A stretch of DNA of 64,000 nt from a virus (IMGVR_UViG_3300025718_000005:1976-65975), one strand, 5' to 3'. Shown: positions 14,580-25,476, numbered from the stretch's first letter. Notes: a model not told the origin generated them from the sequence alone. Made by a program: numbers and translations.

Positions 14580-14600
14580 ATTAGACAATTTTTGTACAAA
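14580..14600 (+). promoter_or_regulatory. Conserved 21-bp site, copy 1 (ATTAGACA-atttt-TGTACAAA)
   Basis: 16/16 fixed positions shared with copies at 15830, 20803 and 25456; lies just before an RBS. Confidence 0.85.
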
Positions 14601-14613
14601 TGAATTTAAGGAG

Positions 14614-15264
14614 GTGATTAAAATAGCTAAGCCCTTAGACATTACTGGGGAATCTTTCGAGCGGCTAACGGCCGTTAGAAGAGTAGGTACTACAAAACAG
14701 GGCCATGCACTGTGGTTATTCCACTGTGCATGTGGTGGGGAATGTACTTCTGTTTTGGGTAATGTTCGTAGCGGAAATACGACTAGCTGCGGGTGCTTAA
14801 GTAGTAGATTGTACAGAACCCACGGAATGAATGGGACACGGTTATTTGGTATTTATCGAAAAATGATTGATCGGTGCTATAACGCTAAGAATAAATACTT
14901 CCATCGTTACGGCGGCCGCGGGATTGCGGTTTGCAAAGAGTGGCTAAACGATCGTTCAATATTTTTTGAGTGGGCTAAAATGACCAGATATGCCAATAAC
15001 TTATCTATTGATCGTAAAAATAACGATGAAGGATACTCGCCAGGCAATTGTCGGTGGGCGACACAACGGGAACAGGTAAACAATAGAAATAACACTATTT
15101 TTATTACAGTAAACAACCTAACAAAACCCCTAGCCGATTGGGCGCGAGCAGTGGGAATGAAGCCATCAGTTGTCAGGAGTAGACTAAAGCTTGGGCGTAG
15201 CCCAGAAGATGCGTTAAATCCAAATTTGTTTAATAAGGAGAATAACTTTGAAAGAAAAATTTAA
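14614..15264 (+). CDS. HNH homing-type endonuclease
   Basis: FERLT...WLFHCACG...SCGC, THGM, MIDRCYN, YGGRGIAVCKEW, SIDRKNNDEGYSPGNCRWAT. Confidence 0.9.
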   Translation: MIKIAKPLDITGESFERLTAVRRVGTTKQGHALWLFHCACGGECTSVLGNVRSGNTTSCGCLSSRLYRTHGMNGTRLFGIYRKMIDRCYNAKNKYFHRYGGRGIAVCKEWLNDRSIFFEWAKMTRYANNLSIDRKNNDEGYSPGNCRWATQREQVNNRNNTIFITVNNLTKPLADWARAVGMKPSVVRSRLKLGRSPEDALNPNLFNKENNFERKI

Positions 15265-21856: not shown

Positions 21857-24400
21857 ATGGGAATAGGTAGTTTGTTTAGCCCATCATCAAAAAGTCTAGC
21901 GAGGCAATCTGCGCGTAAAACGGTAGAGATTATAAAAAAGGTAGGCACGTTCGGCATTGAATGGCCCACGATGCCCGCGCAACGTGTTAAAGATTACAAG
22001 GTTATTACTACAGCTTCTGAACTGATTGCGTACCTTAAACGGTGCGAGGAAACCGGGTTATGCGGTTTTGACTATGAAACTACGGTTAGTGCTGAGTTTA
22101 GGAAAGTATGGGAAGCGAAGGAACAGGCGCATAGAGAAGAAGAAAATGAACTGATTCATAAGTATCAAGATCAAATACACGATTTAGAAGAGCCTGATTA
22201 TAAGAAGCGTGAAGCAACTCTCAAGAAGCTGGAGAAGGAAAGGGATTCAGTCTTAAAGAGTTTTTATACTGGGTGGGATAAGTTGGTAGAGACTGATTTC
22301 CTAAATTCCCCCCTGGATCCATGGAAAGCAGAAATATGCACGGTGTCATTAAGCGCTGCGCCCCACGAAGCGCGGGTAGTGTTTATAGATAATCAAGGAA
22401 CAAACCGTTTTAAGAGTGTCGGGGAGCTTAAAAGTGGCTACCTTGAGTACAACTCTATTGTACGAGGTGAAGTATTCAATGTCTTAAACGAACACCTTTT
22501 CCAAAATAAAAACATTATGAAAATAGCTGTAAACCTCTCATTTGAAACTAAGCAAACCGCGAAGCTGGGAATGTACATCATGGAGCCGGTAGCCGATCCG
22601 TTCCTTATGTGGGTACGTTGTACCCAAGTCGTGGCGCCTGAAAAGATTCTCGATCCGAAGTCTCCAGCATCCGGTAAGGGTTTAAAACCGATGACAAAAG
22701 AATATTTTGGAGTTGAAATGCAAGACTTCAAAGCGCTGTTGGAAAAGCATAAAGTACAATTTTTCTCAGAGATTTCCGCGGACCATCCCGATGCGCTTAA
22801 CTACTCGGCAGAGGATTCGGATTACGCTGTACAACATTATCTTTATTGGAAAGAAATCGCGAAGCAGATCCCGCACTATGATAAGTGGCTGCATAGAATA
22901 GAGATGCCGTTTGCCCGTGTGATTGGTCTTATGGAGTACTGGGGCATGGCGTGGGACGATAACCTAGCTGAGCAAAAGAAGCAGGAAGCGGAAATAATGC
23001 GAGATACTGCGATTGCCGATATCGTGACACTTGGTAAAAATTTCGGACTAGAACTAGCGCCTGGAAAGACAGGAAAAACGGGTAGCGTTAAGTCGTTTCT
23101 GTTTGATACCTTAGGGGTTCCTGTGGCTAAGCGGTCAGAGAAGACAGACGGGCCTAGTCTAGATGAAGAAGCTTTGATCGATATGAAATTTATGATTGAG
23201 AATAAGCTAGAGGATTTAGATGAAGAAGAGTATTTGGCTATTGAACTGCCCAGCATTAACACGGATGGCGTAATTCTACAGCCTTCAACTAAAGAAGATT
23301 ACATTGCGATACTCGATAATCTAGCTGAGTATCAAAAAACATTAGCAAAAAAAGAACGTAAAGCAATGGATATTATGATGCGTTCAGATCATCCCCACAA
23401 AGAAGATGCTCTCAAACTTCTAGCTTTGATTCAAAGCGTGCAAACATACTCGACACTGCTCTCCAGCCATATTGTCGGTCGGCAGAAATTTTTGAATGAG
23501 ATGTCTGGGCGGATCCACGCGGGGTACAGTCAGTGGACCGAAACAGGGAGACTTAACAGCTTTAAACCTAATGGCCAAAATATCCCTCGTATGGACAACG
23601 ATATATTCGGTATTCGTAACTTCTTTGTATCAAAGCCAGGTAAGATTCTAGGGTTTATAGATTTCTCGGGGTTCGAACTACGTTTAATGGCCTGGGCCTC
23701 CGGTGATGAAACGATGACCGAAGCTTTTAAAAATGGTGGCGACTTGCACAGAAAAACCGCGTCTACCATGACAGGTAAGCCAGAATCTGAAATAACAAAA
23801 ACTGAGCGGACACATGCAAAGGCTGGAAATTTCGGTATATCTTACGGTGGCACGGAGCACGCACTACAGAAAACCTTTAAAACTGATTACGGAATCCGTA
23901 AGACGCTAGCTGAATGCGCGAAGGTAGTAAACGCTGTAAAAGGTACATATAAGCGTATACCTGAATTTCAACAAGCAATAGCTCTAAAAGCTCGACAGCA
24001 AGGTTATGTACAAACAATGTATGGGTACATAAGGATGTTACCCAATATAGGGAGCACAGACCGCCGCGCCAAGTCAGCCGATGAGCGGAAGGCGGCTAAT
24101 ACACCAATTCAAGGAACGGCAGCCGACGTTATGAAGCGGTGCCAGAATGAAGTTTATGAACTGCTAGGAAGTGGTAATTTAAAGGGAGTAGACATGATAG
24201 CTCAGATACATGATGAAATTGTATTTGAAATGGATGATAACCCCGAAACAGTCTCTACAGCTTTTACTTTGATTAAGGCCTTAATGGAAAAACCTCCGTT
24301 GCCTGACTTCCCATTACCTATCTTGGCTGACGCGTCAGTGGGTTATCGGTGGGGGGAAAAGATGTCATTAGAACAATGGATGACGATGAAATGCGTATAG
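21857..24400 (+). CDS. polA: Family A DNA polymerase with 3'-5' exonuclease domain
   Basis: FDYET (ExoI), YSAEDSD (ExoIII), TETGRLNS..PNGQNIP, DFSGFELR (motif A), AKAGNFGISYG (motif B), QIHDE (motif C). Confidence 0.95.
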   Translation: MGIGSLFSPSSKSLARQSARKTVEIIKKVGTFGIEWPTMPAQRVKDYKVITTASELIAYLKRCEETGLCGFDYETTVSAEFRKVWEAKEQAHREEENELIHKYQDQIHDLEEPDYKKREATLKKLEKERDSVLKSFYTGWDKLVETDFLNSPLDPWKAEICTVSLSAAPHEARVVFIDNQGTNRFKSVGELKSGYLEYNSIVRGEVFNVLNEHLFQNKNIMKIAVNLSFETKQTAKLGMYIMEPVADPFLMWVRCTQVVAPEKILDPKSPASGKGLKPMTKEYFGVEMQDFKALLEKHKVQFFSEISADHPDALNYSAEDSDYAVQHYLYWKEIAKQIPHYDKWLHRIEMPFARVIGLMEYWGMAWDDNLAEQKKQEAEIMRDTAIADIVTLGKNFGLELAPGKTGKTGSVKSFLFDTLGVPVAKRSEKTDGPSLDEEALIDMKFMIENKLEDLDEEEYLAIELPSINTDGVILQPSTKEDYIAILDNLAEYQKTLAKKERKAMDIMMRSDHPHKEDALKLLALIQSVQTYSTLLSSHIVGRQKFLNEMSGRIHAGYSQWTETGRLNSFKPNGQNIPRMDNDIFGIRNFFVSKPGKILGFIDFSGFELRLMAWASGDETMTEAFKNGGDLHRKTASTMTGKPESEITKTERTHAKAGNFGISYGGTEHALQKTFKTDYGIRKTLAECAKVVNAVKGTYKRIPEFQQAIALKARQQGYVQTMYGYIRMLPNIGSTDRRAKSADERKAANTPIQGTAADVMKRCQNEVYELLGSGNLKGVDMIAQIHDEIVFEMDDNPETVSTAFTLIKALMEKPPLPDFPLPILADASVGYRWGEKMSLEQWMTMKCV

Positions 24401-25455
24401 GTATAGTTGATGCTGATCTACTGGATAAAGGGACGCGTTTTCCAAATCTCGTTTGCATGAAGTTATCAGCCTACCATAAACACTGCGGTCATAACGTCGA
24501 TTTGCTATTAGACTATAATAATGTCAAGGACTATGACAAGGTTTATATAGTAAAAGTATTTAGTAAAACCTCCGTGCCTATCGACTTAGCTCAACCCAAC
24601 ATAGAGTACAACGGTACGGGATTCTTTTATGATAATGCAGTGCCATTACCTAGTCGCATAGAGCATACAATGCCTGATTACACCCTGTACGAAACATGGT
24701 TACAGAATAACGTAGTAAGTAAAAATACTCGTAGCTATTACGAAGATTATTCAATTGGTTATACCACTAGGGGATGCTTCAGGCATTGTAGTTGGTGCGT
24801 AAACCGTAACAGTGATGAAGTAATGGTAAATTCTCCGGTAAGCGAATTTCTTAATAAAAAAAGAAAACGTATATCGATGCTTGATGACAATGTTTTAGGC
24901 TATACAAGGTGGGAAAAAGTATTTGAAGATCTACAGTCAACAGGTAAATATTTTGTGTTTCGTCAAGGCCTTGATCTCCGGTGCTTAACAGAGCATAAAG
25001 CAGAGGTGCTGGCTGAAAGTAAATATTATAAAGACTATATATTTGCTTTTGATGATGAGAAGGATGAAACAGCTATAAGACAAAAGTTGAAATTATGGAG
25101 ATCTTACAGCCATAAGGGTACTAAACTTTACACGTTGACAGCCTTTAAAAGTATCTGTGTTAATGACATTGACAACCTGTTTAAAAGGTTTTGGATTCTT
25201 GCTGAATACCAATGTGTTCCGTACGTGATGCGGTTTGAAGGCTGGGAGCGGTCAGAGCATCGTGGTATGTATATTACTATCGCTAGATGGGCTATTCAAC
25301 AAAAATTTTACAAGAAGATGTCCTTTAGAGAGTTTTGTGAGGCGGATATTAAAGCACCATCAGCACTTGGTTACCTAAGGAAATTTGAAAAGAAGTACCC
25401 AGAAATAGCGAAGAAACATTTTGACAGAAGATACTCGGATTTTTCATGCCTATAA
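24391..25455 (+). CDS. Radical SAM protein of unknown function
   Basis: TRGCFRHCSWC (CxxxCxxC); N-terminal FPNLVCMKLSAYHK. Confidence 0.85.
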   Translation: MRIGIVDADLLDKGTRFPNLVCMKLSAYHKHCGHNVDLLLDYNNVKDYDKVYIVKVFSKTSVPIDLAQPNIEYNGTGFFYDNAVPLPSRIEHTMPDYTLYETWLQNNVVSKNTRSYYEDYSIGYTTRGCFRHCSWCVNRNSDEVMVNSPVSEFLNKKRKRISMLDDNVLGYTRWEKVFEDLQSTGKYFVFRQGLDLRCLTEHKAEVLAESKYYKDYIFAFDDEKDETAIRQKLKLWRSYSHKGTKLYTLTAFKSICVNDIDNLFKRFWILAEYQCVPYVMRFEGWERSEHRGMYITIARWAIQQKFYKKMSFREFCEADIKAPSALGYLRKFEKKYPEIAKKHFDRRYSDFSCL

Positions 25456-25476
25456 ATTAGACAAAAATTGTACAAA
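25456..25476 (+). promoter_or_regulatory. Conserved 21-bp site, copy 4 (ATTAGACA-aaaat-TGTACAAA)
   Basis: Exact motif; immediately followed by RBS AGGAG. Confidence 0.85.

What the first reader, a model, noticed from the sequence alone, without database searches (positions are those of the whole stretch)
14580..25476. Four copies of a 21-bp site (ATTAGACA-N5-TGTACAAA), identical at all 16 fixed positions, define an unannotated regulon in the replication module
Seen: copies at 14580, 15830, 20803 and 25456 are identical at all 16 fixed positions, all on the + strand, all directly before or on an RBS (HNH/HD, SSB-like/primase-MCM, SigH-like, post-PolA genes). I found no other full copy by eye. 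Knowledge: the Spo0A box is TGNCGAA (reverse TTCGNCA), and the Spo0A effector domain binds adjacent boxes as a tandem dimer. The first half, TTAGACA, is one mismatch from TTCGACA. The second half repeats T..ACA 11 bp later, one helical turn. Inference: these are operators of the phage Spo0A-domain protein (2417-2755) or of host Spo0A~P, coupling phage replication to sporulation state. Alternatives are the phage sigma factor, the RinA-like protein, or an RNA-level translational motif.
Basis: partly seen in the sequence, partly recalled or inferred. Interest (0 to 1): 0.9.

Follow-up and report, generated by a model that had tools for sequence, protein, structure and literature searches.

The report
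Four-copy control site in phage replication genes
A temperate phage carries four letter-perfect, same-strand copies of a two-part 21-base site at the heads of four gene blocks in its DNA-replication region. It is most likely the docking site of an unidentified phage regulator, and the proposed link to the sporulation regulator Spo0A is weak.

Summary
ATTAGACA-N5-TGTACAAA occurs four times (14580, 15830, 20803, 25456), always on the + strand and always in a minimal intergenic gap 0-25 nt before a start codon. There are no weaker copies: the four score 40-48 bits and nothing else in the window exceeds 12. Conservation extends about 9 nt upstream (TGmCyA), so the element is about 30 bp.

The window is a 66-kb temperate siphophage of the phBC6A51 / vB_BboS-125 type. 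The motif is absent from 45 relatives and from viral, genome and metagenome collections, where only single chance hits were found.

The sites split a roughly 27-kb terminator-free early operon into blocks, at junctions between conserved core genes and lineage-specific cassettes. No RNA fold or Rfam family fits.

A promoter with its -10 in the right half would start downstream of the ribosome site in copies 3 and 4.

For Spo0A, the left half is a 6/7 0A box, and the same heptamer sits inside a tandem 0A array upstream of a spo0A gene in MT835718.1. But every half-site lacks contact base G5, the invariant right half also lacks C4, and the spacing is not the tandem 3-bp form.

Best reading (about 0.4): a dispersed, asymmetric, stoperator-like operator of an unidentified phage protein. 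The scan earlier noted dispersed 5-W5-5 operators in a related phage-plasmid.

The parts
14570..14601 (+). Copy 1 of the ~30-bp element (core 14580-14600, spacer ATTTT). It lies 17 nt after the helicase stop and before the HNH endonuclease and HD genes.
   Evidence: (40.2 bits); downstream genes
15820..15851 (+). Copy 2 (core 15830-15850, spacer AAAAA). It lies 18 nt after the HD gene stop and 25 nt before the ATG of the 244-aa Pam3_Gp34-like gene, which is followed by the AEP-primase/MCM gene.
   Evidence: (45.7 bits); genes
20793..20824 (+). Copy 3 (core 20803-20823, spacer GAAGG). The spacer is the Shine-Dalgarno site of the SigH-like sigma gene, whose ATG (20824) abuts the motif. It heads the block sigma, deoxyribosyltransferase, PolA, radical-SAM.
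   Evidence: (47.2 bits); genes
25446..25477 (+). Copy 4 (core 25456-25476, spacer AAAAT). It starts on the base after the radical-SAM gene stop, and the upstream extension lies inside the end of that gene. GGAG follows 1 nt after the motif, and the ATG of the 133-aa MazG-like gene follows 12 nt after the motif.
   Evidence: (48.0 bits); genes
2029..2322 (+). Candidate binder (inferred only). This early 97-aa protein has a zinc ribbon plus an HTH_17 (excisionase/MerR-type) domain. Two unlike DNA-reading modules would suit two unlike half-sites.
2381..2755 (+).
20824..21441 (+). Candidate reader under the promoter rival: an orphan, distantly SigH-like sigma factor (205 aa).
873..1060 (.). The immunity switch, included for contrast. 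It has face-to-face sigma-A promoters (890-918 on +, 1060-1032 on -) with four copies of a different operator word, TTAGCATA (873, 897, 937, 1043). No copy of the 21-bp motif lies here.

Best explanation
The four sites are copies of a lineage-specific, asymmetric protein-binding site on the phage DNA: a dispersed operator.

Each copy has two unlike 8-bp halves set tail-to-tail (reverse TGTCTAAT and forward TGTACAAA) around a 5-bp spacer that is usually pure A/T. A weaker third half-site (TGcCTAa) lies one helical turn upstream.

A sequence-specific phage protein is inferred to bind all four. The binder is not identified. It would be either a two-module monomer or an asymmetric dimer, and the early zinc-ribbon/HTH_17 protein at 2029-2322 is the most suitable candidate.

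The sites sit inside a roughly 27-kb co-directional early operon that has no convincing terminators. Each lies on or just before a ribosome-binding site. A bound protein would therefore act as a brake on RNA polymerase reading through from the early promoter. At copies 3 and 4 it would also sit over the DNA that encodes the ribosome-binding site. This would give separate control of four blocks: HNH/HD; Pam3_Gp34-like/primase-MCM; sigma/deoxyribosyltransferase/PolA/radical-SAM; and MazG-like/MazZ-like.

Shown: the sites, their invariance, strand, placement, uniqueness and lack of RNA structure. Inferred: that the level of action is DNA, that the effect is a brake, and the identity of the binder.
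For: - Four exact copies with an invariant asymmetry and no degenerate halo.
- Sequence varies only in the 5-nt spacer and the flanks, which argues for selection on two recognition blocks rather than recent copying.
- Three of the four spacers are pure A/T (p about 1.4e-3 at 59% AT), as is common in the centre of two-part DNA sites.
- The distance to the start codon (0-25 nt) and to the upstream stop (0-21 nt) varies. This fits an element that only needs to lie between genes.
- There is no + strand terminator from 918 to about 27.6 kb, and the only strong sigma-A-like promoter is the one at 890.
- No stable or unusual RNA fold (z from -0.5 to +1.5) and no Rfam match.
- Known precedent comes from mycobacteriophage stoperators (PMC9283540, PMC6550527): asymmetric sites in one orientation in short intergenic gaps, read by a monomeric two-domain repressor.
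- An unchecked note of this scan (e1-3685410) reports dispersed 5-W5-5 repressor sites along the early operon of a related phage-plasmid.
Against: - No binder is identified.
- The immunity switch uses a different word (TTAGCATA), so this is not a classical stoperator read by the immunity repressor.
- With no relative carrying the element, there is no co-variation between site and protein to test.
- All nearby genes are on one strand, so strand fixity cannot separate a DNA site from an RNA site.
- Phage genomes that encode their own sigma factor usually use such conserved repeats as promoters.
Confidence: 0.4

Rival explanations
1. The sites are phage-specific middle promoters read by the phage's own orphan SigH-like sigma factor, possibly with a co-factor bound to ATTAGACA. 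TGcCTA would serve as the -35, the invariant ATTAGACA would fall in the spacer, and TGTACAAA would be the -10 (T-12, A-11). Transcription would start about 7 nt after the motif.
For: - The phage encodes a sigma factor with no detectable close relative.
- No other motif with three or more copies exists in the genome that could be its promoter.
- The upstream block and the right half sit 22 bp apart start to start, which is a sigma-70-family geometry.
- The sites head four gene blocks in a long operon that is otherwise poor in promoters.
- Near-perfect conservation is typical of phage-specific promoters (my knowledge: T4 late TATAAATA, phiEco32 gp36 promoters).
- In copy 4 an in-frame ATG sits exactly at the predicted start, so a leaderless mRNA is possible.
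Against: - The predicted start falls inside the sigma reading frame in copy 3 and after the GGAG in copy 4, so two of the four sites cannot serve the next gene in the normal way.
- The best-conserved block would lie in the spacer, and the would-be -35 is the least conserved part.
- The two invariant blocks are only 5 bp apart.
- The one relative with a sigma homologue (L047, 31% identity) has no comparable repeat, and there the sigma gene overlaps the primase gene.
- None of the copies except copy 2 has a sigma-A -10 at the right distance.
Confidence: 0.22
2. The sites are Spo0A operators. Host Spo0A~P or the phage's receiver-less Spo0A domain would bind the 0A-like half-sites and tie expression of the replication module to the sporulation state. 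This would resemble the 0A boxes of phi29.
For: - The left half is 6/7 to the reverse 0A box and has the A-rich flank.
- The same heptamer is the middle box of a tandem 10-bp-period array upstream of a full-length spo0A gene in MT835718.1.
- All three half-sites fit TGnnnAA.
- The phage Spo0A domain has an intact recognition helix.
- Imperfect boxes with one deviation are bound in phage Nf (PMC2731898).
- Spo0A roadblock repression downstream of a promoter is known for abrB (my knowledge).
Against: - Contact base G5 is missing from every half-site, and C4 is also missing from the invariant right half. Each single change lowers affinity about 10-fold (PMC3485338).
- The arrangement is tail-to-tail with a 5-bp spacer, or direct at 11 bp, not tandem with a 3-bp spacer (PMC2731898).
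- Positions outside the heptamers are invariant, and the asymmetry is conserved, which a homodimer does not explain.
- Canonical boxes are not enriched in the phage (2 + 2).
- Real 0A regulons are degenerate, not 16/16 identical.
- The unchanged recognition helix predicts canonical specificity, so the phage protein more likely targets host 0A boxes.
Confidence: 0.12
3. The element acts at the RNA level. The motif would be read on the polycistronic mRNA as a single-stranded site for a translational repressor, a translational enhancer or a processing enzyme. This would resemble the T4 RegA regulon of replication genes or the unexplained start-associated sequences of Cluster K mycobacteriophages.
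For: - All copies are on the coding strand and lie within the region a 30S subunit covers, 0-25 nt before the start.
- Copy 3 contains the Shine-Dalgarno site itself.
- The regions are less structured than shuffled controls, as translation-initiation regions tend to be.
- Start-associated sequences show the same restriction to non-structural genes and to one orientation (PMC3203893).
Against: - The distance to the start codon is not fixed.
- In copy 2 the motif ends 10 nt before the Shine-Dalgarno site.
- No RNA-binding protein was recognised among the phage genes scanned.
- No complementary sequence exists elsewhere in the phage that could give an antisense RNA.
- A fixed 5-nt A/T-rich spacer between two invariant blocks is more typical of DNA recognition.
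- The upstream extension of copy 4 lies inside a coding region.
Confidence: 0.12
4. The element is a DNA-processing site rather than an expression signal. It could be a strand-specific nick site, a recombination or cassette-boundary site, or a priming site for the AEP-primase/MCM. Two HNH endonuclease genes lie next to copies 1 and 3.
For: - The all-or-none 16-bp specificity, the bipartite N5 form, the few copies and the single strand recall the phiKMV-type nick consensus CGAC-N5-CCTACTCCGG and the nick sites of phage tf (PMC3517423).
- All four copies lie at junctions between conserved core genes and cassettes missing from relatives: HNH216+HD, p86+HNH3, sigma+Ndt, and radical-SAM.
- Copy 1 sits directly before an HNH gene, and copy 3 lies 125 nt after another.
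Against: - Nothing shows a nick or a recombination event.
- No other phage shares the site, so it cannot currently serve as a shared crossover point.
- Homologues of the p86/HNH3 pair in phBC6A51 are not flanked by anything similar.
- Homing enzymes normally do not keep their own target in the genome.
- The block between copies 3 and 4 contains the core PolA gene, so it is not a cassette.
Confidence: 0.08

Closest known systems
Stoperators of Cluster A mycobacteriophages (L5 gp71-type repressor; PMC9283540, PMC6550527)
   Same: Both are asymmetric sites in near-identical copies. Both keep one orientation relative to transcription and sit in short intergenic gaps between co-directional lytic genes. 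The stoperator is read by a monomer with two DNA-reading domains and blocks elongation.
   Different: Stoperators are 13 contiguous bp in about 24-30 copies across the whole genome, and they are the same sequence as the operator at the early promoter. Here the site is 8-N5-8 plus an upstream extension, with only four copies, all in the replication module. The immunity switch uses another word (TTAGCATA).
[quoted passage not shown]
   Same: Both are asymmetric repeats in one orientation, found only among non-structural genes and just upstream of start codons. Both sometimes overlap the upstream stop and are absent from the host and from other phages. The function of the mycobacteriophage sequences is still unproven. 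The extended form is an imperfect inverted repeat with a variable spacer and is thought to be a protein site on DNA.
   Different: The start-associated sequence contains the Shine-Dalgarno core and lies a fixed 3-7 nt from the start, in 11-19 copies. Here the ribosome site is separate except in copy 3, the distance is 0-25 nt, and the spacer length is fixed.
Spo0A 0A boxes in phages phi29 and Nf and in sporulation promoters (PMC2731898, PMC3485338)
   Same: The left half is a one-mismatch 0A box. The phage belongs to a group whose relatives infect Bacillus and related Firmicutes, and it carries a Spo0A effector domain. A phage using the sporulation regulator to shut down its own early genes and replication is established for phi29.
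   Different: No half-site keeps the CG core, the spacing is not the tandem 3-bp form, and the sites are invariant over 16 positions. Canonical boxes are not enriched.
Promoters of phage-encoded sigma factors (T4 gp55 late promoters, SPO1 gp28 and gp33/34, phiEco32 gp36; from my own knowledge)
   Same: Both are highly conserved short motifs at the heads of gene blocks in a phage that encodes its own sigma factor.
   Different: Here the ribosome sites of two of the four downstream genes lie upstream of any start that the right half could direct. The strongest conservation falls where a spacer would be.
Localised single-strand nick sites of phiKMV-like, tf and T5 phages (PMC3517423)
   Same: Both have few copies on one strand only. 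The phiKMV-type consensus is also bipartite with an N5 gap.
   Different: Nicks are shown experimentally in those phages and are not tied to gene starts. Here nothing beyond the sequence pattern points to nicking.

Membership tests
Spo0A binding site (0A-box array) | A TGTCGAA core that keeps the contact bases G2, C4 and G5 | tested here: not met
   The left half in reverse is TGTCTAA, which loses G5. The right half TGTACAA loses C4 and G5. The upstream TGCCTAA loses G5. The contact bases are taken from PMC3485338.
Spo0A binding site (0A-box array) | Two or more boxes in direct orientation 3 bp apart (10-bp period) | tested here: not met
   The halves are tail-to-tail across 5 bp, or direct at an 11-bp period. 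The tandem rule is from PMC2731898. A true tandem array containing TTAGACA is seen in MT835718.1.
Spo0A binding site (0A-box array) | A cognate Spo0A DNA-binding domain is available | tested here: met
   The protein at 2381-2755 matches Spo0A_C (E 2.8e-32). Its recognition helix is identical to that of PDB 1fc3 and 1lq1.
Spo0A binding site (0A-box array) | Actual binding by Spo0A | not testable with these tools
   This needs EMSA or DAP-seq.
Sigma-70-family promoter | Two conserved blocks about 16-19 bp apart that are the best-conserved parts of the element | tested here: inconclusive
   TGmCyA and TGTACAAA have the right spacing. However, the invariant ATTAGACA lies between them, and the -35-like block is the weakest part.
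Sigma-70-family promoter | The transcription start lies upstream of the ribosome site of the gene served | tested here: not met
   With the -10 in the right half, the start falls at about +7 after the motif. That is inside the sigma reading frame in copy 3 and after the GGAG in copy 4.
Stoperator-type dispersed operator | An asymmetric site in one orientation relative to transcription, in short gaps between co-directional genes | tested here: met
Stoperator-type dispersed operator | The same site also forms the operator at the early lytic promoter and is bound by the immunity repressor | tested here: not met
   The switch at 873-1060 carries TTAGCATA words and no copy of the motif.
Start-associated sequence (Cluster K type) | Contains the Shine-Dalgarno core and lies a fixed few nt from the start codon | tested here: not met
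   The distances are 13-22, 25, 0 and 12 nt. The Shine-Dalgarno site lies inside the element only in copy 3.
Structured cis-regulatory RNA | A stable or conserved fold, or a match to a curated RNA family | tested here: not met
   Folding energies are -3.1 to -5.8 kcal/mol with z from -0.5 to +1.5. No Rfam hit falls at any copy.

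The most novel reading that the evidence does not exclude
The element is a composite promoter-operator read jointly by the phage's own orphan SigH-like sigma factor (through the right half and the upstream block) and its receiver-less Spo0A domain (through the 0A-like left half). 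This would be a private, phosphorylation-independent copy of the Spo0A/sigma-H sporulation-entry circuit, rewired to drive or gate the phage's replication and nucleotide-modification genes. The sigma gene would limit its own expression through copy 3.
Probability: 0.06. Interest if true: 0.8.

Novelty: new member of a known kind. Interest (0 to 1): 0.4.

Why it matters
Dispersed, orientation-fixed control sites inside phage operons are known from only a few systems: stoperators, start-associated sequences, and promoters of phage-encoded sigma factors. Several of these are still unexplained.

This element offers a compact, clean case in a Firmicute temperate phage. It has four identical sites and a small set of candidate readers, and the gene blocks are of obvious importance: primase-helicase, polymerase, a sigma factor and a nucleotide-modification set. 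That makes the mechanism easy to test.

If a Spo0A or sigma link held, it would show a phage wiring its replication to the host's sporulation decision through its own copies of the host regulators.

As it stands, this is a real but ordinary-looking regulatory repeat whose binder is unknown.

Tried and rejected
- **Exact-motif scans of public collections.** The 30-nt extended pattern gave none.
- **Relatives.** Forty-five loci of the phBC6A51 / vB_BboS-125 type (primase-MCM mostly 56-64% identical) were scanned by mismatch count (155 hits against 174 in controls) and by weight matrix (nothing above 14 bits). De novo gapped-word searches in relatives found no analogous repeat.
- **Closer relatives through other genes.** The sigma factor has no relative, HNH216 has none, and the radical-SAM gene reaches at most 41% identity.
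- **Homing-cassette flanks.** Homologues of p86/HNH3 in phBC6A51 have no similar flanks.
- **RNA structure and Rfam.** Nothing was found.
- **Sigma-A promoter readings on either strand.** These were rejected. Only copy 2 has a decent -10 at 17 bp, and the reverse strand has none.
- **MerR-type 19-bp-spacer promoter.** Only copy 1 has a good -35 (TTGACT), and the dyad is not centred in the spacer.
- **Tyrosine-recombinase core site.** The spacer is too short, and the small recombinase at 33562 lies in the packaging region.
- **A 4-codon mini-ORF (NTG-3 codons-TAG) overlapping the upstream extension of every copy.** This is noted but thought to be chance. Copy 2 would start at CTG, and only copy 3 has a ribosome site.
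- **Resemblance of the left half to the SpoIIID consensus WWRRACAR and of the right half to the sigma-E -10 CATACAHT (both from memory).** These consensus sequences are too degenerate to count as evidence.
- **HNH proteins against PDB sequences.** No match.

Full report
**What is there**

The pattern ATTAGACA-N5-TGTACAAA has four exact matches in the window, at 14580, 15830, 20803 and 25456, all on the + strand. The next-best site has three mismatches (33540). The window is bases 1976-65975 of a 65,975-bp virus record that CheckV rates as complete, and the whole record holds the same four copies and no others. Relaxing to five mismatches gives as many hits as reversed-sequence controls, so no halo of weaker sites exists. 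A 32-nt weight matrix scores the four copies at 40-48 bits, and nothing else in the window passes 12 bits.

The repeat extends upstream. T-9, G-8, C-6 and A-4 are invariant, and the block reads TGmCyA. The element is therefore about 30 bp.

It can be read as three related heptamers in alternating orientation. These are TGcCTAa (forward, weak), TTAGACA (the reverse of TGTCTAA) and TGTACAA (forward), with centres 10 and 12 bp apart. Three of the four 5-nt spacers are pure A/T (p about 1.4e-3). The fourth, GAAGG, together with the following TG, is the Shine-Dalgarno site of the next gene.

**Setting**

The record is a temperate siphophage. At the left end are an integrase and an ImmA-type protease, followed by an XRE-type repressor (134-907, on the - strand). 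The switch has face-to-face sigma-A promoters at 890-918 (+) and 1060-1032 (-), and it carries four copies of a different word, TTAGCATA.

Rightward from 890 the genes run co-directionally for about 27 kb, with no convincing + strand terminator. In order they are:
- Rha, a Cro-like HTH, a zinc-ribbon/HTH_17 protein, a receiver-less Spo0A domain, SbcCD-like proteins, a clamp-like protein and a resolvase;
- an SF2 helicase, then copy 1;
- an HNH endonuclease and an HD protein, then copy 2;
- a Pam3_Gp34-like protein, the AEP-primase/MCM, an 86-aa protein and an HNH_3 endonuclease, then copy 3;
- a SigH-like sigma factor, a deoxyribosyltransferase, PolA and a radical-SAM protein, then copy 4;
- a MazG-like lead, a MazZ-like protein, a 3D domain protein and DUF5651.

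All four copies lie in intergenic gaps of 33-145 nt. Three of these (33, 51 and 64 nt) hold little beyond the motif and a ribosome site. Intergenic DNA is 7.4% of the window. The motif ends 13-22, 25, 0 and 12 nt before the start codon and begins 17, 18, 21 and 0 nt after the preceding stop.

**Relatives**

The primase-MCM is 60% identical to those of Bacillus phages phBC6A51, PHBA67-T and vB_BboS-125. It is mostly 56-64% identical to 42 IMG/VR contigs. The best protein match anywhere is 68%, in a Veillonellales MAG.

Gene order is conserved: helicase, Pam3_Gp34-like gene, primase-MCM, PolA. The genes next to the motif copies, however, are missing or placed elsewhere in relatives. These are HNH216, HD, p86/HNH3, sigma/deoxyribosyltransferase and radical-SAM. 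Each copy therefore sits at a junction between core and variable DNA.

None of the 45 relatives has the motif or an analogue. Scans of viral, genome and metagenome collections return only single chance hits for the 16-base motif and nothing for the 30-nt form.

The element is thus a lineage-specific innovation. No comparative test, whether co-variation or co-occurrence with a gene, can be made with the data in reach.

**Level of action**

An RNA structure is not supported. The four regions fold weakly (-3.1 to -5.8 kcal/mol), no better than shuffles (z from -0.5 to +1.5), and no Rfam family matches.

A sigma-type promoter is geometrically possible. It would have TGmCyA at about -35 and TGTACAAA at -14 to -7, with T-12 and A-11. 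Transcription would then begin about 7 nt past the motif. That is inside the sigma reading frame in copy 3 and past the GGAG in copy 4, although an in-frame ATG sits exactly there. The best-conserved block would lie in the spacer.

Readings with the motif as a sigma-A -35 fail for three of the four copies. The one relative with a homologous sigma factor (L047, 31% identity) has no such repeat.

A DNA-binding protein reading two unlike halves across a fixed A/T spacer explains several features at once. It accounts for the invariance, the conserved asymmetry, the variable spacer sequence and the indifference to exact distance from start and stop codons. This is how stoperators behave (PMC9283540, PMC6550527).

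The immunity operators here are a different word. The binder would therefore be another protein, and the early zinc-ribbon/HTH_17 protein is a reasonable but untested candidate.

**The Spo0A idea**

Spo0A contacts G2, C4 and G5 of TGTCGAA, and single changes cost about 10-fold in affinity (PMC3485338). Dimers occupy direct boxes 3 bp apart (PMC2731898).

The left half, read in reverse as TGTCTAA, keeps G2 and C4 but not G5. The right half, TGTACAA, keeps only G2. The arrangement is not tandem at 10 bp.

The phage Spo0A domain has the canonical recognition helix. This predicts canonical specificity and suggests host 0A boxes as its targets. Canonical boxes are not enriched in the phage.

In MT835718.1, a faecal contig with a full-length spo0A gene, the promoter region carries TTCGACAAAA/TTAGACAAAA/ATCGACAAAA. 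There TTAGACA is the middle box of a textbook tandem array, so TTAGACA is a credible weak 0A box. I put the Spo0A reading at about 0.12.

**Other rivals**

- **Nick, recombination or priming site (about 0.08).** The bipartite N5 form, the few copies, the single strand and the neighbouring HNH genes recall the nick sites of phiKMV-like phages and phage tf (PMC3517423). Nothing else supports it.
- **RNA-level translational or processing signal (about 0.12).** This would resemble the start-associated sequences (PMC3203893).

**Verdict**

The generic reading, an unannotated cis-regulatory set in the replication module, stands. The specific Spo0A reading is weak.

My best explanation is a dispersed, asymmetric operator of an unidentified phage protein, acting as a brake at four gene-block heads (0.4). 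A phage-sigma promoter is the main rival (0.22).

This is a new member of a known kind of element, of moderate interest, and easy to settle by 5'-end mapping and a DNA pull-down.

Noticed in passing
L286 (MT835718.1) 17687-17716 and 17834-18601: An 'UNVERIFIED Bacteriophage sp.' faecal contig encodes a full-length Spo0A (receiver plus effector, 255 aa). The gene is preceded by a terminator, three tandem 0A-type boxes at a 10-bp period (TTCGACAAAA/TTAGACAAAA/ATCGACAAAA) and a TATAAT box, which looks like a spo0A autoregulatory region. The contig has 19 canonical 0A boxes against about 5 expected.
   Followed up: partly
window 873-1060: The immunity switch has face-to-face consensus sigma-A promoters (890-918 on +, 1060-1032 on -). 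Four copies of TTAGCATA/TATGCTAA lie at 873, 897, 937 and 1043 and are the likely operators of the XRE repressor and the Cro-like protein.
   Followed up: partly
L284 (record bases 258-2037, just left of the window): A 424-aa tyrosine integrase and a 153-aa ImmA/IrrE-type metalloprotease sit on the minus strand upstream of the repressor. This is an ImmR/ImmA-type temperate module.
   Followed up: yes
window 34132-34285 (GGTTCGAATCC at 34216): A tRNA T-arm-like stretch lies just downstream of the 189-aa catalytic-domain-only tyrosine recombinase (33562-34131). ARAGORN finds no complete tRNA. It may be a tRNA 3' fragment of the kind found at attachment sites.
   Followed up: partly
window 33540-33560: This is the only near-copy of the motif (3 mismatches). 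As in copy 3, its spacer (AGAGG) serves as the ribosome site, here for the small recombinase gene. It lies in the 5' leader behind a consensus sigma-A promoter (TTGACT-17-TATAAT). It is probably chance similarity of ribosome-site context.
   Followed up: partly
window 15248-27144: A dense nucleotide-metabolism set surrounds PolA: an HD hydrolase, a nucleoside 2-deoxyribosyltransferase-like protein, a radical-SAM protein (PHROG 9298), a MazG-like 133-aa protein (lead only) and a dATP/dGTP diphosphohydrolase N-terminal domain protein. Together they suggest a modified base in the phage DNA.
   Followed up: no
window 14570-14584, 15820-15834, 20793-20807, 25446-25460: In every copy the upstream extension plus the first bases of the motif can be read as a 4-codon mini-ORF: NTG, three codons, then TAG. 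The starts are TTG, CTG, ATG and ATG. Only copy 3 has a ribosome-site-like sequence before it.
   Followed up: no
window 30585-31204 (minus strand): Two adjacent paralogous genes (84 and 119 aa) have weak NikA-like ribbon-helix-helix matches. They share a 122-nt direct repeat at 71% identity and stand against the flow of the operon.
   Followed up: no
window 9988-10578: The phage encodes a sliding-clamp-like protein (weak match to the DNA polymerase III beta C-terminal domain; PHROG processivity factor) in the same operon as its own sigma factor.
   Followed up: no
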